A stretch of DNA of 64,000 bases, taken from IMG/VR virus record IMGVR_UViG_3300045988_117195, positions 31,385 to 95,384 of that record. One strand, given 5' to 3'. The notes below the pieces were generated by a model, which was not told the origin of the DNA, searched no databases, and worked only from the letters and a program-made list of their open reading frames with translations. A program made the translations under genes and the position numbers. This DNA is from a virus. This document shows positions 22,412-64,000 of this stretch, in pieces. Position 1 is the stretch's first letter; each line of letters opens with the position of its first letter.

Positions 22412-22906
22412 TTAGGCATTTAACTCTGATTTATAAAACTTCATTGTTGTTTCTTTGGAGATATAAACTTCGCATCTATCAGCTGGGCCATAACCTACAC
22501 GCGCTTGTATCCAAGGCAACTCTCTATGTATTGCTGTTTCAAGCTGAAACTGATTCCATTCTGAAAGATTTTCCAAAACAGTACTCACTAAATCTTTCTG
22601 GTCTGTTGTTAATTTGGCAAACTCAGCGTCAACATCTATATCACCGGGAGCATAACTATAGGACAATTCTGAATATAAAATTGATTTGTCTTTTAAACTG
22701 TCGTACACTTTACGGCTAACTGGCCCATGAACCCACGCTTGAAATTTATCAGAAACCAATTCTGTACCAAAGTAAGCAAGATGGTATGCGTCACAATAAA
22801 ACAACAATTTTTGCAATTTTAAGTGAGACATAGAGCCATAATGCTTAACAATATATTCACATAAGACTAATGAGTCTATCTTTTGAAGTTTTCGGCTCGT
22901 TTCCAT
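22412..22906 (-). CDS. Panacea-domain (DUF4065, SocA/PanA antitoxin-like) protein
   Basis: HLKLQKLLFYCDAYHLAYFG...AWVHGPVSRKVY matches Panacea core (LKLQKLLYFaqgwhL...W.yGPV..VY); ORF track start at 23002 is TTG, first ATG at 22906. Confidence 0.7.
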   Translation of the reverse strand: METSRKLQKIDSLVLCEYIVKHYGSMSHLKLQKLLFYCDAYHLAYFGTELVSDKFQAWVHGPVSRKVYDSLKDKSILYSELSYSYAPGDIDVDAEFAKLTTDQKDLVSTVLENLSEWNQFQLETAIHRELPWIQARVGYGPADRCEVYISKETTMKFYKSELNA

Positions 22907-23143
22907 TTTTCTATTTTTTTGATGACAAAAATACCCTTTTGTTTTTCTAAAACAAAGAAAATCCTTTATTTGTTTGTTAAACGTGTTTACAAACACTTTC
23001 AATAATAATCGGTATATATCACACGTTCACCATTTAAAGGAGATAGATCATATATAACCCATCCGTCATTAACCTGATTATCATCATGCGAACATGATGA
23101 TAACACAAGTGCCATCAATAAAACAAAATACCTCATATTATTT

Positions 23144-47928: not shown

Positions 47929-48396
47929 TTAATACTGTGAATCATATTTTCTTTCTCTCCCGCTGTCTTCCCCTATAGGATTATCCCATCCGTATTTTAC
48001 AGCCGTAGCTTTAAATAGAGGTAGCCCGTAAAATCCATAATCATCCTCATCCCAGTCTTCAAGACCTTCTTCCAGGATGTAGTTCCACATCATCACACAT
48101 TCAAACATTAAACTGGCTGATATCCCTCTCTGATTTAATGCCTTTTCAAAACCGAATCTTACATCTTCTTCAAGCTGTTTCAAAACATTCTCCCTGGTAA
48201 ATTCAACTACAGTACTGTTCCACCTTTCTTCGTTATTGTATTCTTCGTTCGGCTCCATACCGAAATCCTTTATCATGTTATATGGGATAAATTTAGCCAG
48301 TCTGTTAAAATCTCTACCGTCTAAACATTTTGATGCTAATTCTTTAAGTTGTTCTAATGTTTTCATAAGCAATTTTGTTTTATAGGTTAATCCCAT
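47929..48396 (-). CDS. hypothetical protein, overlaps NTase gene by 10 nt (possible partner)
   Basis: ORF in minus block. Confidence 0.45.
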   Translation of the reverse strand: MGLTYKTKLLMKTLEQLKELASKCLDGRDFNRLAKFIPYNMIKDFGMEPNEEYNNEERWNSTVVEFTRENVLKQLEEDVRFGFEKALNQRGISASLMFECVMMWNYILEEGLEDWDEDDYGFYGLPLFKATAVKYGWDNPIGEDSGRERKYDSQY

Positions 48397-49049
48397 CCTC
48401 CAGTAGTGTACAAAGATACATCTTCCTCCTCTACGTTTACACCTTTAATAGCCTGTAGAAGTTTTTTCTTTGTCTCCCGGCACATATTGTAACCATATCC
48501 TTTATACCGATATGAGCGCTCCCATGTACTTACTGGAAAAGGGATATTTTCGTCAATAACCAGCCTCTTCATATGAAGATGTTCGAAGAATTTCTCATGA
48601 TAGAGTAGTTTGTACTCGTATGCTACTATACTTGCAGATGAGAATGGAAAATAATCATCTTCTTTTTCTTCGTATTTGGGCTCCTTATAGTAAGCCATTT
48701 TTGTCACAGTAAAATCGAAGCTCCTAAGAATCTCTTTCGGCTTTCCAAACTCTGACTCTATGAACTCTATCCATACCTTTTCTCCCTCTTTCTGGAACGC
48801 ACATACCTTCTCATTTCTGTACTTAAATTTCCATCCTTCTTTCTGATGTTTTTCATCATTGAACGAATCAATAGCCTCCTGAAAATCGCTTTCACTTTCA
48901 AAGAAAATATCAATGTCTTTTACTCTTTCTCCGGAAAGGATATTTTTAAAACATCCACCAGCTATGAATCCTTTGTGGCCTTCCATATACTTGTCAAGCC
49001 ATCTTATTTGCCAGAAATTATCTGGAGTATCTATTACAAAATTATTCAT
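48387..49049 (-). CDS. Pol-beta-superfamily nucleotidyltransferase, CCA-adding/poly(A)-polymerase head-domain-like
   Basis: GFIAGGCFKNILSGERVKDIDIFF aligns with class II CCA-adding motif GGAVRDLLLGRPVKDIDI (GG-x10-DxD). Confidence 0.6.
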   Translation of the reverse strand: MNNFVIDTPDNFWQIRWLDKYMEGHKGFIAGGCFKNILSGERVKDIDIFFESESDFQEAIDSFNDEKHQKEGWKFKYRNEKVCAFQKEGEKVWIEFIESEFGKPKEILRSFDFTVTKMAYYKEPKYEEKEDDYFPFSSASIVAYEYKLLYHEKFFEHLHMKRLVIDENIPFPVSTWERSYRYKGYGYNMCRETKKKLLQAIKGVNVEEEDVSLYTTGGWD

Positions 49050-59890: not shown

Positions 59891-60270
59891 CTTACTACCC
59901 TTTCCACGTGTTTAATTAATACTACTGCCATCCCTTTGCCGGTTTTTATCGCACATTCCGATCCTTTTATCCATTCTACACATCCTACATACTTTTCTGT
60001 AGAATGAAAACCTGGATTGTATTTCCCGGATGTACTAAACTCTACCGTATCCCCTACCTTCAGATCCTCAAAAGCAATAGCCCATGTGGTCCAAATTCTA
60101 TCATGTCTTCCAGGCTGAATGGCTCCGATTACGCCTTTCTTACGACCGTTTTTTATTGCCCTTAGTATTATCTTCCTATCACCTTCGATAAGGCTGCAAA
60201 AGCGCCCGTAAAAGGTCAAATCAACCTGTTTTCCTCCTATTTCTTCTCTTATTTTTGTTATTCTGTTCAT
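59887..60270 (-). CDS. ASCH/PUA-like domain protein (tentative)
   Basis: EGDRKIILRAIK and KVGDTVEF resemble ASCH GxKxxExR and beta-barrel core. Confidence 0.4.
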   Translation of the reverse strand: MNRITKIREEIGGKQVDLTFYGRFCSLIEGDRKIILRAIKNGRKKGVIGAIQPGRHDRIWTTWAIAFEDLKVGDTVEFSTSGKYNPGFHSTEKYVGCVEWIKGSECAIKTGKGMAVVLIKHVERVVR

Positions 60271-60514
60271 TTTCTGATTTTGTTTTATTTTTTTCTTTGT
60301 TTTTTCTATCTTCTATAGAAGATGATAATAACATTATCTTTTCTATGTTACTTTTTGACTGTAAAAAAGAATCGCATTTCATTACTACTACCACCTTCTT
60401 AAGTTCCCCATTATCATACAGCGATACACGCATCATGTTTTGCACCTCGTCCACTATCAGACCTGGAGTAGTCTTAGCCATTTTGCGTAGCTTATTATAC
60501 TCCGGTCTTTCCAT
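60221..60514 (-). CDS. hypothetical basic protein
   Basis: ORF in minus block. Confidence 0.35.
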   Translation of the reverse strand: MERPEYNKLRKMAKTTPGLIVDEVQNMMRVSLYDNGELKKVVVVMKCDSFLQSKSNIEKIMLLSSSIEDRKNKEKNKTKSENEQNNKNKRRNRRKTG

Positions 60515-60779
60515 TTCCTCTGTTTATTACTCTATAGTATTTATCCTTATCCCCTTCTTTCAACTTCTCCAGATAGAAAATTCCATCATGTAAATGAGAC
60601 AAACAAAACCTGTATCCGTATTTCTGTACTCTTCTTACATGATCCCGCAGTCTTATCTCTTCACTTTTGTCTTGTACTTTGATTTTAATACTGTCTCCTT
60701 CTTTGATTGTGTATAAAATAGTTTGAATCTCTTCTTTTTTCATCTTATAAAATATTTTAACGGCAGCACCTATACTCAC
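60495..60779 (-). CDS. hypothetical protein
   Basis: ORF in minus block. Confidence 0.4.
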   Translation of the reverse strand: MSIGAAVKIFYKMKKEEIQTILYTIKEGDSIKIKVQDKSEEIRLRDHVRRVQKYGYRFCLSHLHDGIFYLEKLKEGDKDKYYRVINRGNGKTGV

Positions 60780-60806
60780 GCACCACTACTGCCTTATGTT
60801 TAACAA

Positions 60807-61616
60807 TTAAATACTTAACTCTTCAATGGTCAAGCCTTTTTCTTTTGCCCACTTTAGCATCGCGCATAATTCTGTTTCTGACTTATATTTCGGATCACGC
60901 CACGCCCATCCGAATTTATCCAGGACATGATGATATAATTCGTCGGCCTTTGCCGTGTAAATGTCTTTGAATAAATGCTCCGAACCTTCCGGTATAAGCA
61001 TCTCTGTTGTTGCAAAATCGGAATACGATAAACATCCGTAAGCATATTCTGTTATTTCACTCCATGCTTCTCCGGCTTTAAATCCAAATTCTTTTACAAA
61101 AGCCAAAGTTAGATACATATTTAATAATATTGTTACATCATATCCGGAATCCGACTTTCTTTCTATTATTTCCTTTTCAAATTCCTTTAAATCTTCAGGC
61201 CCTAAAAAGATGTATCCTGATACCGACCGGTAATTAGTCTCCGCATACTTCTTGCATTTATCATCATTGACAATCTTACTAATGTTAGATAACATCTTTT
61301 GCCTCCATTCATCACAAAACTCTACCTCTACGTTCATCCAATCAGTACCATAATTATATTCTTTCGGATATCCGACCGATGTTACCTTTATACTATTCAC
61401 GCCATATCCGTAAAGGCGTTCACTTACCTCATTCGCCCATTCCTGTACAAAAGGAATAAACTTATTGTAATAAGAATCAAAATCAAAATCCGATTCCTCC
61501 TCATATTCTGGCATCTCTTCATAATCCTGTTCAAAGAAATGACGAGGATCTGCTATTGTTTCGTAGAAACTTACGTTAATGAAACAAAACTCGTTAGTTG
61601 TCGTTTTTAATATCAT
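60807..61616 (-). CDS. hypothetical acidic protein
   Basis: ORF in minus block. Confidence 0.5.
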   Translation of the reverse strand: MILKTTTNEFCFINVSFYETIADPRHFFEQDYEEMPEYEEESDFDFDSYYNKFIPFVQEWANEVSERLYGYGVNSIKVTSVGYPKEYNYGTDWMNVEVEFCDEWRQKMLSNISKIVNDDKCKKYAETNYRSVSGYIFLGPEDLKEFEKEIIERKSDSGYDVTILLNMYLTLAFVKEFGFKAGEAWSEITEYAYGCLSYSDFATTEMLIPEGSEHLFKDIYTAKADELYHHVLDKFGWAWRDPKYKSETELCAMLKWAKEKGLTIEELSI

Positions 61617-61867
61617 AACTTTTTGTATTTACGTACATTTTTCTTGCCATAGAATCTACACATGGCACGAATCTGACTATAAAATACTTTTGTCCTCCTG
61701 GCCTCAAAGTATTTAAACATTTCTTCATTCTTTGTTTCCCAAACGTAATCCGTTTGGGAACTCATGCGATCTTTCTCCTTGCGTGAATAATGGTAATATG
61801 ATACCACAACACGTTTCATACCATTCTTTACAGGTACGATATTTACGTCTATACTATTCTCTGTCAT
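61613..61867 (-). CDS. hypothetical protein
   Basis: ORF in minus block. Confidence 0.4.
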   Translation of the reverse strand: MTENSIDVNIVPVKNGMKRVVVSYYHYSRKEKDRMSSQTDYVWETKNEEMFKYFEARRTKVFYSQIRAMCRFYGKKNVRKYKKL

Positions 61868-61986
61868 ATTATTATTGTTTTATGCATTATACAAATACAA
61901 AGAGCGCATACCTTCACAGGCCGGCGCTCCTTTCAATAAAAATGAAAAAACTAATATTACATAAACATATTGTTTTCTACTCTTTA

Positions 61987-62220
61987 TTACAATACTTTTG
62001 TTCCGCAATTATTATATCTTCCGTACTCTTTTTTCGTATCATTCAAGATTTCAAAAACCATCTTCTTGTGATCTTCGTTTGGTAACCTATCCTTAACAGC
62101 CGATATTACGCCCGCTATAGACGTAAAGCCTGAATCTGTTATTGAACACAGCAACACGCCTCTGTCGGCTCCGGTGCTTATTGCTGACGCCTTTATAATA
62201 TCATTCTTATATATTCTCAT
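61987..62220 (-). CDS. hypothetical protein
   Basis: ORF in minus block. Confidence 0.4.
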   Translation of the reverse strand: MRIYKNDIIKASAISTGADRGVLLCSITDSGFTSIAGVISAVKDRLPNEDHKKMVFEILNDTKKEYGRYNNCGTKVL

Positions 62221-62241
62221 AACTTTTTTGTTTTATTGTTT

Positions 62242-62336
62242 GTGAGATGCCCAGAATCGAACCAGGACCGGCACATACGCACCGGCACGCCGCGTCATCC
62301 CCTCTATGATGCAGAAATAGGCATGCCTATCCTCAC
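62242..62336 (-). tRNA. putative tRNA or tRNA-like element A (canonical T-arm GGTTCGATTC and 3' acceptor half ...ATCTCAC; 5' half non-canonical, anticodon undetermined)
   Basis: GC-rich 95-nt island in 175-bp intergenic gap; minus-strand CCTGG-TTCGATT-CTGGG T-arm followed by CATCTCA-C; preceded by palindrome TAGGCATGCCTA. Confidence 0.35.
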
Positions 62337-62395
62337 GAACCGACATGCCAAAACCCAAAACTTAATTTGATGAATAAAATAGATTAACAAAAATA

Positions 62396-62710
62396 CTATT
62401 CTAATTCTTTTATAATATCTTTCACAATATTCAGCCTTACCTCCTTCGTTTCTGGACTAATACAACCAAACCACCCATAAAACTTTCTTGTTTCCTCTGG
62501 TTCTGTGGCCATACTTATCTTCTCCTCCAATTCCGGGAAATATATTCTCACCATTTCGTCTGAACGAAACTCATAGATATTTTTATGTGTTTTGAAATAC
62601 ATAAACACTACATTTCTTAACGCAACACATATGTATTCCCCATCCTCTAACCTATCAATCATCTCATATACCTTTTTCCATATGAATAATCGCTCTTCTT
62701 TTGTAAACAT
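62396..62710 (-). CDS. hypothetical protein
   Basis: ORF in minus block. Confidence 0.45.
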   Translation of the reverse strand: MFTKEERLFIWKKVYEMIDRLEDGEYICVALRNVVFMYFKTHKNIYEFRSDEMVRIYFPELEEKISMATEPEETRKFYGWFGCISPETKEVRLNIVKDIIKELE

Positions 62711-62724
62711 ATCCTTCTTTATTT

Positions 62725-63066
62725 TTATGGTATTATTTGACTGTATGCAGACTTTTCCATGTACACAATATTATGCTCCTGTCCAAATATCTTCTTTGCC
62801 ACCTCTTTCTTTATCGCACAATATCTTCCTGTACGATACGGATTCTTTTGATCTGATCCATCCTCGACTTCGATAATAAAACAACCTCCGTCATCTATTA
62901 TCTTTTTGCAATTGTCACATATTTCTCCCGTGCATATATGATGCGGCGCCTGCCCTTTGATGTTATTCCCTAATAAAGCAATCCCCATCTCTTCACCGCA
63001 TACTATGCATAGTTCTATGGATGGATTCAACCCATGCTCTGGATGCAATACAATACCGTCTTTCAT
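62725..63066 (-). CDS. Cys-rich hypothetical protein
   Basis: ORF in minus block; CIVCGEE...C..C..C. Confidence 0.45.
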   Translation of the reverse strand: MKDGIVLHPEHGLNPSIELCIVCGEEMGIALLGNNIKGQAPHHICTGEICDNCKKIIDDGGCFIIEVEDGSDQKNPYRTGRYCAIKKEVAKKIFGQEHNIVYMEKSAYSQIIP

Positions 63067-63467
63067 TTTCTATCCTCCTTTATTAATTCTATTATAAACT
63101 TTTTATCTTGTTCCCACAATGGCAGCCCTTCTTTTACTGTGTATGCCACTGTTTCCCTCTCTCCTATTAATCGCACGGCAATCTCTCTTGCTTTCAAGTC
63201 ATCCTCCTCATGCGATTTGTTTATTAAATCATAGGCACATGATTCCACCTTTTGCCTTTCGATTATTATCGAACCCATTAACTCGCTTATATGCGATCCT
63301 AAAAACGATAAGACATTAATAGCTTTCCCAATATCATTTGAAATAGCACTTGCTAAATACATCTTATCCATATACTCCGGCAAAGCCTCGTATGCCGTTT
63401 CTATGTTTTTATACTGATTTTCGTTTACCTCCCTTTTAATCAGTTCTTCAAATTCTTCTTTTAACAT
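63063..63467 (-). CDS. hypothetical protein (start moved to MLKEEF to avoid tRNA-like element)
   Basis: ORF 63063-63536; N-terminal 23 codons coincide with tRNA-like element B. Confidence 0.45.
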   Translation of the reverse strand: MLKEEFEELIKREVNENQYKNIETAYEALPEYMDKMYLASAISNDIGKAINVLSFLGSHISELMGSIIIERQKVESCAYDLINKSHEEDDLKAREIAVRLIGERETVAYTVKEGLPLWEQDKKFIIELIKEDRK

Positions 63468-63488
63468 GTTCTTCCCTATTTTAATGTT

Positions 63489-63535
63489 GTGTGAGATCGC
63501 CGGAATCGAACCGACTTGCTGCACCATGAATCCCA
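63489..63535 (-). ncRNA. tRNA-like element B: 3' half of a tRNA (GTCGG-TTCGATT-CCGGC T-arm plus GATCTCA-C acceptor strand) without recognisable 5' half
   Basis: Shares TGTGAGAT-NCC-GGAATCGAACC 3' signature with element A. Confidence 0.3.
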
Positions 63536-63543
63536 TAAATCAA

Positions 63544-63571
63544 ATGCTCCGATCTTCGCAGATGGGAGCAT
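63544..63571 (-). terminator. minus-strand hairpin terminator (ATGCTCC-c-ATCT-GCGA-AGAT-c-GGAGCAT, GNRA loop) then TTTGATTTAT
   Basis: Extended near-perfect inverted repeat immediately 5' (minus-strand sense) of element B. Confidence 0.4.
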
Positions 63572-63744
63572 TCTGTCTAAAGCATAAGAAAATTAATGAA
63601 GAAAATTTTTCTCACTTACGCCATAGCATCTAAAATAGCTATCAACACTATTTCTATGACAAGCACAATAGAGAATGTCTTAAATATCTTTTTCATATCT
63701 CCTCCTTTTTTATCTGTTCTTTTCACGTTCCACAATAAACTGTT

Positions 63745-63826
63745 CCGGCTCTGCTCCGAACTACGTTCCACCTACAACCGCAGGCCTTAGCCCAAGGCGC
63801 CGCCTACTCCCCCTCTATGGCAGCCT
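63745..63826 (-). other. GC-rich element C sharing a 27-nt motif (CGCCGC.T..TCCCC(C)TCTATG) with tRNA-like element A; degenerate copy or related structured RNA
   Basis: 63797-63824 vs 62287-62314 about 20/27 identical; lies in ORF-poor terminal 450 bp. Confidence 0.25.
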
Positions 63827-64000
63827 GTTCGTACCTACAAATCCAATCTCCATCTACACAACTATCACTACGCGATAATAAACATTTATCCTTATAACAA
63901 TCATAAAAAATACACCTATCACAACTGTAATCCTTAACGTCTACACAGCTAACTACCTTAGCATATACTATACCATCACTGCCTTCTATTCCTTTTATCC

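What the first reader, a model, noticed from the sequence alone, without database searches (positions are those of the whole stretch)
62221..63840. Family of GC-rich tRNA-like elements with perfect T-arm/acceptor 3' halves but aberrant 5' halves
Elements A (62242-62336) and B (63489-63535) share the minus-strand 3' signature GGTTCGATTC-NGG-C-ATCTCAC, the textbook T-arm plus acceptor strand, with no encoded CCA. I could not fold a canonical D-arm, anticodon arm or acceptor 5' strand for either. Each is immediately preceded (minus sense) by a strong hairpin plus U-tract. A third GC-rich element, C (63745-63826), shares a 27-nt motif with A. Possibilities are non-canonical or intron-containing tRNAs, tRNA 3' fragments marking attP-like or recombination sites, or tRNA-like structures processed by RNase P/Z. 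The ORF-track ORF 63063-63536 would translate through B, which argues its annotated N-terminus is wrong.
Basis: seen in the sequence. Interest (0 to 1): 0.6.

Follow-up and report, generated by a model that had tools for sequence, protein, structure and literature searches.

The report
Minimal tRNA-like RNA modules between phage genes
Two short conserved RNA elements in this gut crAss-like phage mimic only the top half of a tRNA (acceptor stem plus T-arm); they sit between small genes, are neither real tRNAs nor integration sites, belong to an undescribed family also found in unrelated phages, and probably act as cutting signals for the host's tRNA-processing enzymes.

Summary
Elements A (62301-62242, minus) and B (63535-63491, minus) are real. 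Their shared 22-nt signature occurs exactly twice in the window against 0.02 expected. Each folds as a 6-bp stem starting G:C, a GG-containing D-loop mimic, an optional inner hairpin, a canonical 5-bp T-arm with a UUCGAUU loop, and an unpaired A-C tail. There is no D-stem and no anticodon.

- ARAGORN and Rfam 15 call nothing here.
- No genome among 185,579 species carries this 3' half in a tRNA, so the attP idea fails.
- The helices covary strongly in more than 170 copies from epsilon crAss-like phages.
- They also covary in an unrelated phage lineage sampled through a neighbouring protein, where acceptor sequences are fully replaced but pairing is kept.
- The elements always lie on the coding strand, about 20 nt before the next start codon. 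The downstream gene varies between genomes.

C is not a member. It shares a marginal 26-nt motif (p about 0.01), has no T-arm and shows no covariation.

My best reading, untested, is an intercistronic tRNA-like processing module cut by RNase P and RNase Z. It also serves as a recombination joint. I rate it a new variant of a known kind, of moderate interest.

The parts
62242..62301 (-). Element A, a minimal tRNA-like module. Acceptor 5' strand GGGAUG 62301-62296 (G at 62302 faces A73). D-loop mimic ACGCGGCGUG 62295-62286. Inner hairpin CCGGU/GCCGG 62285-62268. T-stem CCUGG 62266-62262. T-loop UUCGAUU 62261-62255. T-stem CUGGG 62254-62250. Acceptor 3' strand CAUCUC 62249-62244. Unpaired A 62243 and C 62242.
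   Evidence: Sequence read. CM R1 scores it 80.8 bits, E 5e-17. Pairing and covariation are shown. No tRNA call by ARAGORN or Rfam.
63491..63535 (-). Element B, the same module without an inner hairpin. U 63535. Acceptor 5' strand GGGAUU 63534-63529. Linker CAUGGUGCAGCAA 63528-63516. T-stem GUCGG 63515-63511. T-loop UUCGAUU 63510-63504. T-stem CCGGC 63503-63499. Acceptor 3' strand GAUCUC 63498-63493. A 63492 and C 63491.
   Evidence: Sequence read. CM R1 scores it 54.9 bits, E 7e-11. Natural variants keep pairing, for example GGGAUU/AAUUCC and GCUGG/CCGGC.
62320..62349 (-). GNRA-capped hairpin upstream of A (GGCAUGUC-G-GUUC-GUGA-GGAU-A-GGCAUGCC), followed by a 17-nt U-rich spacer.
   Evidence: Fold. 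Variants change one side only and keep pairs. The hairpin is absent in the L012 deletion variant while A is retained.
63543..63572 (-). GNRA-capped hairpin upstream of B (AAUGCUCC-C-AUCU-GCGA-AGAU-C-GGAGCAUU), followed by UGAUUUA.
   Evidence: Fold (z = -2.8 with B included). The same AUCU-GCGA-AGAU core occurs in a canonical terminator at 58727-58692 that has no tRNA-like element.
63745..63826 (-). Element C, a GC-rich region that contains the stop codon (63806-63804) and 3' flank of the Cys-rich gene running off the window end. It shares about 26 nt with the 5' part of A. It is not a tRNA-like module, and may be a decayed paralog.
   Evidence: reading frame; conservation in over 80 loci; no CM match; A-C similarity p about 0.01; no compensatory changes.
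61987..62220 (-). 77-aa gene whose start codon lies 21 nt after A. In other genomes a 141-aa Cys-rich gene is inserted between A and this gene.
63063..63467 (-). 134-aa gene (phrog_15742) whose true start lies 23 nt after B. It is absent in many relatives, where B directly precedes the next gene (62725-63066).
63616..63696 (-). 26-aa hydrophobic small ORF with a strong Shine-Dalgarno sequence, lying between C and the hairpin of B.
62396..62710 (-). 104-aa gene upstream of the hairpin of A.

Best explanation
A and B are two of three copies per genome of a conserved, transcribed, minimal tRNA-like RNA module. Each has the following parts:
- a 6-bp acceptor-like stem whose first pair is G:C;
- a short unpaired stretch with GG that can mimic the D-loop;
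- an optional inner hairpin;
- a canonical 5-bp T-stem with a UUCGAUU T-loop;
- an unpaired A-C tail with no CCA.

The modules lie on the coding strand inside a block of small genes, about 20 nt before the next start codon. There is no room for a promoter there, so they are made as part of a polycistronic RNA.

Shown here: the structure, its conservation and covariation in two unrelated phage lineages, and the exclusion of a decoding tRNA and of an att site.

Inferred: the host enzymes that trim tRNA ends recognise the acceptor/T-arm stack. RNase P would cut on the 5' side and RNase Z on the 3' side, possibly followed by CCA addition. They would cut the message at this point. The upstream mRNA would then end in the stable GNRA hairpin. 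A 45-60 nt tRNA-like RNA would be released. The downstream mRNA would get a defined short A-rich leader.

As repeats sharing 22 nt, the modules also act as joints for homologous recombination that swaps, deletes or inserts the gene just downstream.
For: Structure:
- On 25 distinct variants, 92% of cells are paired against 85% in shuffles (0 of 500 reach the observed value). The T-stem is 100% paired with compensatory changes.
- A lineage was sampled independently through a neighbouring protein, with no constraint on the RNA sequence. There, 86% of cells are paired against 66% shuffled, 8 of 12 pairs change on both sides, and every slid register falls to 37-53%.
- Acceptor sequences are fully replaced but stay complementary. 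Examples are GAAAUG/CAUUUC, GACAUU/AAUGUC, GGCGUU/AACGCC, GCAAGC/GCUUGC and GGAAC/GUUCC.
- A perfect 5' strand is found for 117 of 136 contexts, against 26 +/- 4 in controls.

tRNA-end mimicry:
- The first pair is G:C in 70 of 71 distinct elements.
- It is followed by unpaired A and then C, and the next base is never C.
- GG lies 4-6 nt after the 5' strand in 69 of 71.
- The phage's own tRNA genes (Cys, Arg, Gln, Met) also lack CCA and show the same N73-C74-notC pattern.

Context:
- The element is always on the same strand as the flanking genes, 15-30 nt upstream of the next start.
- The upstream partner is constant, but the downstream gene differs between genomes, with the junction right after the element.
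- L116 is a chimera of the B 5' half and the A 3' half that deletes everything in between.
- Only A and B, plus a third copy just outside the window, occur in the whole 151-kb relative.

Precedent: RNase P cleaves tRNA-like domains of bacterial Y RNAs, and CCA is then added (PMC4201824).
Against: - No expression or RNA-end data exist, so cleavage is pure inference.
- The acceptor/T stack is 11 bp (6+5 or 5+6), not the 12 bp of tRNA. PMC4201824 notes that a 7-bp acceptor stem is a major RNase P determinant and that shorter Y-RNA stems were not cleaved.
- There is no 3' RCCA.
- Only three sites per 151-kb genome carry the module, so it is not a general punctuation system. Other intergenic hairpins nearby, such as 58727-58692, lack it.
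- Single-sequence folding energies are not better than shuffles.
- RNAalifold alone recovers only the T-arm.
- Much of the crAss-like sample is closely related, so many counts are not independent.
Confidence: 0.45

Rival explanations
1. The module is chiefly a gene for a small stable tRNA mimic that acts in trans. Once excised and perhaps CCA-tailed, it would bind or titrate a protein that recognises the acceptor/T-arm half or the elbow of tRNA. Candidates are a host acceptor-end-directed toxin, EF-Tu, SmpB, a modification enzyme, or the phage's own RNA-repair proteins. Cutting the mRNA would be only a by-product. This partly overlaps the best explanation.
For: - The features conserved across lineages are those read by tRNA-binding proteins: the T-loop, GG, the G1:C72 pair and the A-C tail.
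- Inner parts are dispensable.
- The phage relative encodes Ro60/Rsr with adjacent tRNA-like RNAs, a polynucleotide kinase-phosphatase, and a protein annotated as a CCA-adding/poly(A) polymerase-type nucleotidyltransferase. The window copy of that last protein gives only a weak Pfam hit.
- Function is independent of which gene follows.
Against: - No partner has been identified.
- The G:U pair that would give alanine identity is not conserved: it is A:U or G:C in many members.
- An 11-bp stack departs from what EF-Tu-type readers expect (established knowledge, not tested).
- The fixed position just before a start codon is not needed for a trans-acting RNA.
Confidence: 0.2
2. The module is a cis-acting 5'-UTR element that controls translation or stability of the gene immediately downstream, for example a protective 5' structure or a protein-binding operator. 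Cleavage would not be the point.
For: The distance to the next start codon is constant and short: 21 and 23 nt in the window, and 15-30 nt elsewhere.
Against: - The downstream gene is the variable partner. At least three different genes follow B, two follow A, three follow the third copy, and several follow the copy in the unrelated lineage. A gene-specific regulator is therefore unlikely.
- The conserved letters are tRNA-end features rather than anything complementary to the ribosome-binding site.
Confidence: 0.12
3. A and B are decaying tRNA pseudogenes or recombination scars with no function of their own. They persist only because the genomes sampled are close relatives.
For: - Most crAss-like copies come from genomes about 93-100% identical in the neighbouring protein.
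- C looks like a decayed copy.
- A tolerates deletion of its inner hairpin.
Against: - Compensatory double changes keep both helices within the crAss-like set: G:C to A:U at pair 4:69 in L018, C:G to U:A in T-stems.
- The same architecture sits at a fixed position in a phage lineage whose neighbouring protein has diverged to 61% identity. There the acceptor sequences are completely different but paired.
Confidence: 0.08
4. A and B are tRNA 3' fragments that serve as attP-like integration or recombination sites matching a host tRNA gene.
Against: - The scan of 185,579 species' genomes found no tRNA with this 3' half.
- The elements have their own covarying 5' strand.
- No integrase is annotated in the complete relative.
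- There are three copies in one gene block.
Confidence: 0.02
5. A and B are unusual but functional decoding tRNAs that lack a D-arm or are split or intron-containing.
For: They have a canonical T-arm and an acceptor-like stem. Phages with recoded stop codons sometimes lack detectable suppressor tRNAs (bioRxiv 10.64898/2026.08.21.746148).
Against: - B has only 13 unpaired nt between the acceptor and T-arm.
- A's inner loop is 8 nt, varies in sequence and is deleted in some genomes.
- ARAGORN finds nothing, and the Rfam tRNA model has no hit at E<=10.
- The acceptor stem is 6 bp.
Confidence: 0.02

Closest known systems
tRNA-like domain of tmRNA, and the reduced tmRNA of jakobid mitochondria that consists of this domain alone
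   Same: The layout matches: acceptor stem, then an unpaired GG-containing D-loop substitute with no D-stem, then a helix inserted where the anticodon arm would be, then a canonical T-arm and the acceptor 3' strand. The only Rfam alignment spanning the whole of A was to tmRNA.
   Different: - The tmRNA score is 6.5 bits against a 47-bit threshold, E = 8.
- ARAGORN finds no tmRNA.
- The stem is 6 bp rather than 7.
- There is no CCA and no conserved G3:U70.
- There is no tag reading frame and no pseudoknots.
- The element is embedded between cistrons rather than being a stand-alone gene.
mascRNA at the 3' end of MALAT1, and the tRNA-like units of murine gammaherpesvirus 68 TMER transcripts (from my own knowledge)
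   Same: A reduced tRNA-like fold inside a longer transcript serves as a handle for RNase P or RNase Z. The neighbouring RNA gets its mature end from that cut, and the upstream RNA is left ending in a protective structure.
   Different: Those are eukaryotic or herpesviral and are recognised as near-complete cloverleaves with 7-bp acceptor stems. Here the host is bacterial, the fold is smaller, and the flanks are protein-coding cistrons. Processing is not shown here.
Bacterial and phage Y RNAs of the YrlA type (RF02553; PMC4201824)
   Same: These are tRNA mimics with a T-arm and D-loop contacts, found in phages. One is cleaved by RNase P and receives CCA. The complete relative of this phage encodes Ro60/Rsr with tRNA-like RNAs beside it.
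   Different: - A and B have no Ro-binding stem or GNCGAA motif.
- They have free acceptor ends rather than a capped acceptor hairpin.
- They lie about 75 kb from rsr.
- They give no YrlA hit.
RNase III sites between phage T7 genes, and the repeated promoter/stem-loop cassettes of T4-type phages that mediate modular gene shuffling (from my own knowledge)
   Same: These are intercistronic structured RNA signals that use a host endonuclease to punctuate phage polycistronic mRNAs and leave 3' hairpins. Repeated regulatory elements at gene borders also act as recombination joints for accessory genes. Cassette variation and an A/B chimera are seen here.
   Different: The structure differs (a tRNA mimic rather than a long duplex or promoter), and so does the presumed enzyme.
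Canonical phage tRNA genes
   Same: The T-arm sequence, the G1:C72 pair, the absence of encoded CCA and the N73-C74 pattern match the phage's own tRNAs.
   Different: There is no D-stem and no anticodon arm, the acceptor stem is 6 bp, and tRNA finders do not detect the elements.

Membership tests
Canonical tRNA (RF00005) | T-arm: 5-bp stem with a 7-nt UUCRANY loop | tested here: met
   A has CCUGG-UUCGAUU-CUGGG and B has GUCGG-UUCGAUU-CCGGC. The stem is 100% paired across variants, with compensatory changes.
Canonical tRNA (RF00005) | 7-bp acceptor stem followed by a discriminator base | tested here: not met
   The position that would be pair 1:72 is unpaired in 19 of 25 and in 31 of 32 distinct sequences. 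The stem is 6 bp, or 5 bp with a 6-bp T-stem.
Canonical tRNA (RF00005) | D-arm and anticodon arm with a 7-nt loop | tested here: not met
   B has 13 nt between the acceptor and T-arm. A has 10 nt plus a hairpin with an 8-nt variable loop that is deleted in L047 and L084.
Canonical tRNA (RF00005) | Detected by tRNA finders and the covariance model | tested here: not met
   ARAGORN finds 0 genes in the window and none at the elements in 30 related loci. Rfam gives no tRNA hit at E<=10 on 61800-64000.
tmRNA (RF00023 and permuted forms) | Covariance-model match, tag reading frame and pseudoknots | tested here: not met
   A scores 6.5 bits against 47 (E = 8). B matches only a 17-nt T-arm stretch of the beta_tmRNA model. 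ARAGORN finds no tmRNA.
tmRNA (RF00023 and permuted forms) | G3:U70 alanine identity pair and an encoded or added CCA on a 7-bp stem | tested here: not met
   The G:U is present in A and B but is replaced by A:U or G:C in other members. In the 6-bp register it is the second pair, not the third. No CCA is encoded.
YrlA-type Y RNA (RF02553) | Ro-binding stem with a GNCGAA motif, adjacency to rsr, and a covariance-model match | tested here: not met
   There is no Rfam hit. rsr lies about 75 kb away in the complete relative. The motif is absent from both elements and their hairpins (read).
tRNA-derived attP / integration site | Sequence identity to the 3' end of a host tRNA or tmRNA gene | tested here: not met
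   The pattern scan of one genome for each of 185,579 species gave 2 hits: a mis-binned fragment of the same phage and a coding-sequence chance match. Neither is a tRNA.
tRNA-derived attP / integration site | Neighbouring integrase | tested here: not met
   No integrase appears among the 206 annotated features of OR575929.
RNase P / RNase Z substrates (functional class) | Coaxial acceptor/T-arm stack of about 12 bp with a T-loop elbow and a single-stranded 3' tail lacking CC for RNase Z | tested here: inconclusive
   The stack is 11 bp plus a terminal N-A mismatch. GG is present to contact the T-loop. The tail is A-C followed by a non-C base in 71 of 71. There is no RCCA for bacterial RNase P.
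RNase P / RNase Z substrates (functional class) | Actual cleavage at the predicted sites | not testable with these tools
   This needs enzymatic assays or RNA-end mapping.
Intrinsic terminator (the upstream hairpins) | GC-rich hairpin directly followed by a U-run | tested here: inconclusive
   The hairpins are strong, but the U-tracts are interrupted and the consensus scan does not call them. A canonical relative with a U7 run lies at 58727-58692. In the unrelated lineage the hairpin abuts the element with no U-tract.

The most novel reading that the evidence does not exclude
Phages of at least two unrelated lineages encode a dedicated class of 'half-tRNA' RNAs: an acceptor/T-arm minihelix with a D-loop mimic on an 11-bp stack. 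The RNAs are excised from early polycistronic transcripts and completed with CCA, in the crAss-like phage possibly by its own nucleotidyltransferase. They then act in trans as decoys or adaptors. The target would be a host factor that reads the tRNA acceptor end or elbow, such as an acceptor-end-modifying defence toxin, SmpB/EF-Tu or Ro60. This would be a counter-defence or takeover function distinct from decoding.
Probability: 0.12. Interest if true: 0.8.

Novelty: new variant of a known kind. Interest (0 to 1): 0.55.

Why it matters
If the reading is right, it would extend tRNA-type punctuation to bacteriophage messages. That principle, a tRNA-shaped handle that lets the cell's tRNA-trimming enzymes cut a longer RNA, is known from mitochondria, MALAT1 and a herpesvirus. 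It would also define a compact natural RNase P/Z handle of 45-60 nt.

It gives annotators a reason why recurring 'almost tRNA' signals in crAss-like and other phage genomes are missed by tRNA finders and are wrongly translated through. The 157-aa ORF here is an example.

The family is well enough defined, with a covariance model, a fixed context and clear predictions, to be tested directly. Its position at the border between conserved and exchangeable genes suggests a role in how these abundant gut phages shuffle accessory genes.

Tried and rejected
- ARAGORN and Rfam (gathering score, and E<=10) on the window, on the region and on related loci gave no tRNA, tmRNA or Y-RNA assignment for A, B, the third copy or the other-lineage copies. 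The weak hits (BTnc231, RUF1, tmRNA 6.5 bits, tRNA-Sec 27-29 bits) are far below threshold.
- Single-sequence folding gave energies no better than shuffles for A, B and C alone.
- RNAalifold on both alignments returned only the T-arm. The acceptor helix therefore rests on pair counts and controls, not on energy.
- The alanine identity idea (G3:U70) is rejected as a family feature.
- The attB search in genomes was negative.
- BLAST of A and of the other-lineage locus against GenBank phages found only crAssE-Sib for A. For the other-lineage locus only the downstream methylase gene matched.
- PHROG and Pfam scans of neighbouring proteins gave no informative function.
- Five literature searches were run. 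The first was wasted on a misspelt name. One found the paper describing the phage (PMC11054128), which reports six tRNAs and says nothing about these elements. None of the five found a description of this element.
- The promoter and terminator consensus scan was not above background.
- C as a family member is rejected.
- I did not pursue a structure prediction of the putative nucleotidyltransferase. It would not discriminate between the explanations.
Full report
**What the window is.** Positions 60000-64000 are 97% identical to the right end of phage crAssE-Sib (GenBank title 'csAssE-Sib', OR575929, 151,256 bp, human gut). Its authors describe it as an epsilon crAss-like phage with six tRNAs (PMC11054128). 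The finding lies in a block of small minus-strand genes of unknown function.

**Checking the observation.**
- On the minus strand the signature GGTTCGATTC-NGG-NN-ATCTCAC occurs exactly twice in 64 kb, at 62242-62263 and 63491-63512. Shuffles give 0.02 expected.
- ARAGORN finds no tRNA or tmRNA in the window. Rfam 15 finds nothing at gathering score.
- A permissive Rfam search of 61800-64000 gives only noise. This includes a 6.5-bit alignment of A to tmRNA and a 17-nt T-arm match of B.
  - A reads G-GGGAUG-ACGCGGCGUG-[CCGGU-GCGUAUGU-GCCGG]-U-[CCUGG-UUCGAUU-CUGGG]-CAUCUC-A-C.
  - B reads U-GGGAUU-CAUGGUGCAGCAA-[GUCGG-UUCGAUU-CCGGC]-GAUCUC-A-C.
- Both are preceded by hairpins of the same design: 8 bp, a 1x1 mismatch, 4 bp and a GNRA loop.
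- The 157-aa ORF that reads through B is an artefact. The ortholog is annotated from the internal ATG. The PHROG profile aligns from residue 1 of the 134-aa form. In many genomes B precedes a different gene.

**Relatives and structure in the crAss-like set.**
- A pattern scan of IMG/VR returned 119 loci, most with two copies 850-1250 bp apart.
- These contain about 89 B-type and 83 A-type copies. A third group comes from unrelated small phages.
- Natural variants keep pairing:
  - T-stems: CCUGG/CUGGG, UCUGG/CCAGG, CCCGG/CCGGG, GUCGG/CCGGC, GCUGG/CCGGC.
  - Acceptor stems: GGGAUG/CAUCUC, GGAGAUG/CAUUUC, GGAAUG/CAUUC (G:C to A:U), GGGAUU/AAUUCC.
- On 25 distinct sequences, 92% of cells are paired against 85% in shuffles (0 of 500). 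The T-stem is 100% paired, and the slid registers fall to 27-61%.
- Two A variants have lost the inner hairpin through a deletion between GTGCCGGT repeats. They then look like B.

**An independent test in a second lineage.**
- I fetched 80 loci through the protein encoded upstream of the element in that lineage (phrog_870). These span 61-100% amino-acid identity, and no condition was placed on the RNA.
- The covariance model built from the first alignment hits the same spot, on the same strand, in 58 of 80 loci. A simple helix search finds it in 70 of 80.
- Acceptor sequences there are completely different yet complementary: GAAAUG/CAUUUC, GACAUU/AAUGUC, GGCGUU/AACGCC, GCAAGC/GCUUGC, GCAGUG/CACUGC. 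Some have a 5-bp acceptor with a 6-bp T-stem, such as GGAAC/GUUCC.
- Pair counts give 86% paired against 66% shuffled. Eight of 12 pairs change on both sides, and 82 cells show double changes against 24.5 expected. Slid registers give 37-53%.
- The position that would be tRNA pair 1:72 is unpaired in 31 of 32. The true register is therefore a 6-bp stem.
- Among 71 distinct elements, the first pair is G:C in 70. It is followed by unpaired A and then C, and the next base is never C. GG lies 4-6 nt after the 5' strand in 69.
- The 5' strand was located by complementarity, so I ran a control. A perfect partner exists for 117 of 136 contexts, against 26 +/- 4 when the 3' strand is shuffled.
- Caveats: RNAalifold alone returns only the T-arm. 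Single-sequence energies are unremarkable. Many crAss-like copies are close relatives.

**What it is not.**
- It is not a decoding tRNA. There is no D-stem, the anticodon arm is absent or dispensable, the stem is 6 bp, and no finder calls it.
- It is not an att site. One genome for each of 185,579 species was scanned for the A/B 3' half. The only hits were a 3.9-kb fragment of this same phage, binned into a 'Veillonella' MAG, and a chance coding match. No integrase is annotated in the complete relative.
- It is not a Y RNA or a tmRNA by any defining feature tested.
- C is not a member. It contains the stop codon of the upstream Cys-rich gene, and the model does not match it. It shares about 26 nt with A at p about 0.01, and it shows no compensatory change in 18 variants. 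It may be a decayed copy.

**Context.**
- The element is always on the coding strand, 15-30 nt before the next start codon: 21 nt for A and 23 nt for B. That leaves no room for a promoter, so I infer it is transcribed within a polycistronic RNA.
- The upstream partner is constant, while the downstream gene varies, with the junction immediately after the element.
  - B is followed by the 134-aa gene, by the 113-aa gene, or by a 141-aa Cys-rich gene.
  - A is followed by the 77-aa gene or by that same Cys-rich gene, which is a paralog of the gene ending in C.
  - The same holds in the other lineage, where a methylase or zinc-ribbon genes follow.
- One genome carries a B-5'/A-3' chimera that deletes the interval. 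This shows the copies recombine.
- In the whole 151-kb relative the model finds only A and B, plus a T-arm hit. That hit proves to be a third full element: GGUUGU...UCCGG-UUCGAUU-CCGGA-GCAACC-U-C. It overlaps the stop codon of its upstream gene, is conserved with compensatory changes, and again precedes variable genes. It lies about 1.5 kb beyond the window end on the pseudo-circular assembly.
- The phage's genuine tRNA genes also lack CCA and show the same discriminator-C-notC pattern. The missing CCA therefore does not argue against tRNA-type end processing.
- Hairpins of the same AUCU-GCGA-AGAU design occur elsewhere as ordinary terminators without the element. One natural deletion removes A's hairpin but keeps A. 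The hairpin is therefore a neighbour rather than an obligatory part of the module.

**Mechanism.**
- Shown: a conserved, covarying mimic of the acceptor/T-arm half of tRNA, with tRNA-end features, placed between cistrons in two phage lineages.
- Inferred: recognition by RNase P and RNase Z, which would punctuate the transcript. The upstream mRNA would end in a stable hairpin, and a small tRNA-like RNA would be released. [quoted passage not shown]
- The same paper warns that stems shorter than 7 bp were not cleaved. That counts against this reading, as does the 11-bp stack.
- The rivals are a trans-acting decoy or adaptor RNA, a generic 5'-UTR element, or functionless relics. They are ranked in the report sections.
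- The complete relative encodes Ro60/Rsr with adjacent tRNA-like RNAs, a kinase-phosphatase, and a gene annotated as a CCA-adding/poly(A) polymerase-type enzyme. The window copy of that gene gives only a weak Pfam hit. This keeps the trans-acting reading alive.

**Novelty.** No Rfam 15 family matches. None of the literature searches found a description. The general principle of tRNA mimics used as processing handles is known. This family, its 6/5 architecture and its position at gene-cassette borders in phages appear to be undescribed. Function remains untested.

Noticed in passing
L283 (OR575929) about 568-505, minus strand; outside the window: A third tRNA-like module of the same family: GGUUGU...UCCGG-UUCGAUU-CCGGA-GCAACC-U-C. 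Its 5' strand overlaps the last codons and stop codon of the upstream CDS. It is conserved with compensatory changes in many IMG/VR relatives and is followed by alternative genes. It has no Rfam match.
   Followed up: partly
L284 (OR575929) 22570-22990; outside the window: Three tRNA-like RNAs lie directly upstream of a phage Ro60/Rsr gene. Two are annotated tRNA-Tyr and tRNA-Lys (Rfam tRNA 43 and 53 bits). One gives a sub-threshold YrlA match (28.5 bits against 69, E 7e-4). They may be Y-RNA partners of the phage Ro60.
   Followed up: partly
window 48387-49049, minus strand: A 220-aa protein with a GGxFKNxLxGxxxKDIDIF motif. Its ortholog in the GenBank relative is annotated as a poly(A) polymerase/CCA-adding enzyme. 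Pfam PolyA_pol head domain scores only 14.6 bits (cut-off 23), and there is no PDB sequence match. It would be a candidate to add CCA to the phage's CCA-less tRNAs and tRNA-like RNAs.
   Followed up: partly
L001 5197-5622 and 7206-7466 (minus strand); window 63804-64000: Two paralogous small Cys-rich proteins. One ends inside element C. The other is a cassette found immediately after A in some genomes and after B in one, and is absent from this window. Neither has a Pfam or PHROG match.
   Followed up: partly
L203-L282, about 30 nt upstream of the element and in its inner hairpin: In the unrelated phage lineage, the loop of the upstream hairpin carries a conserved CCUUUC(C) motif and the inner hairpin loop carries GGGG(G). 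The two could pair with each other. Alternatively they could mimic the anti-Shine-Dalgarno and Shine-Dalgarno sequences, since the downstream genes use GGGGG-type ribosome-binding sites. Some members (L228 type) also have a D-arm-like hairpin GUGA-UGGU-UCAC and score 27-29 bits on the tRNA-Sec model.
   Followed up: no
L231 2265-2340 and L224 2278-2349: About 220 nt downstream of the element, these phages carry another odd tRNA-like gene. Rfam tRNA scores it 27-30 bits. ARAGORN calls the L231 copy 'tRNA-???' with a two-base anticodon.
   Followed up: no
L122 (NZ_DXLG01000138.1, 'Veillonella sp.' MAG HRGM_Genome_0346): This 3.9-kb contig is a fragment of this phage (small ORF, hairpin, element B, next gene). 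It is probably a binning contaminant rather than a host clue.
   Followed up: partly
window 58727-58692, minus strand: A canonical intrinsic terminator (CGGCAC...GUGCCG plus U7). It shares the AUCU-GCGA-AGAU core with the hairpin upstream of B and is followed at once by a Shine-Dalgarno sequence and start codon. Terminator-like hairpins between cistrons with no room for a promoter are therefore a general feature of this gene block.
   Followed up: partly
L077, upstream of its A copy: A tandem duplication of the 5' part of the hairpin preceding A: GGCATGTCGGTTCGTGAGGATAG occurs twice.
   Followed up: no
window 60000-64000 gene starts, e.g. 63710-63697 and 63085-63067: Several genes have strong AGGAGG-type Shine-Dalgarno sequences. 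The BACON-domain annotations in the relative nevertheless point to Bacteroidales. The host was not tested.
   Followed up: no
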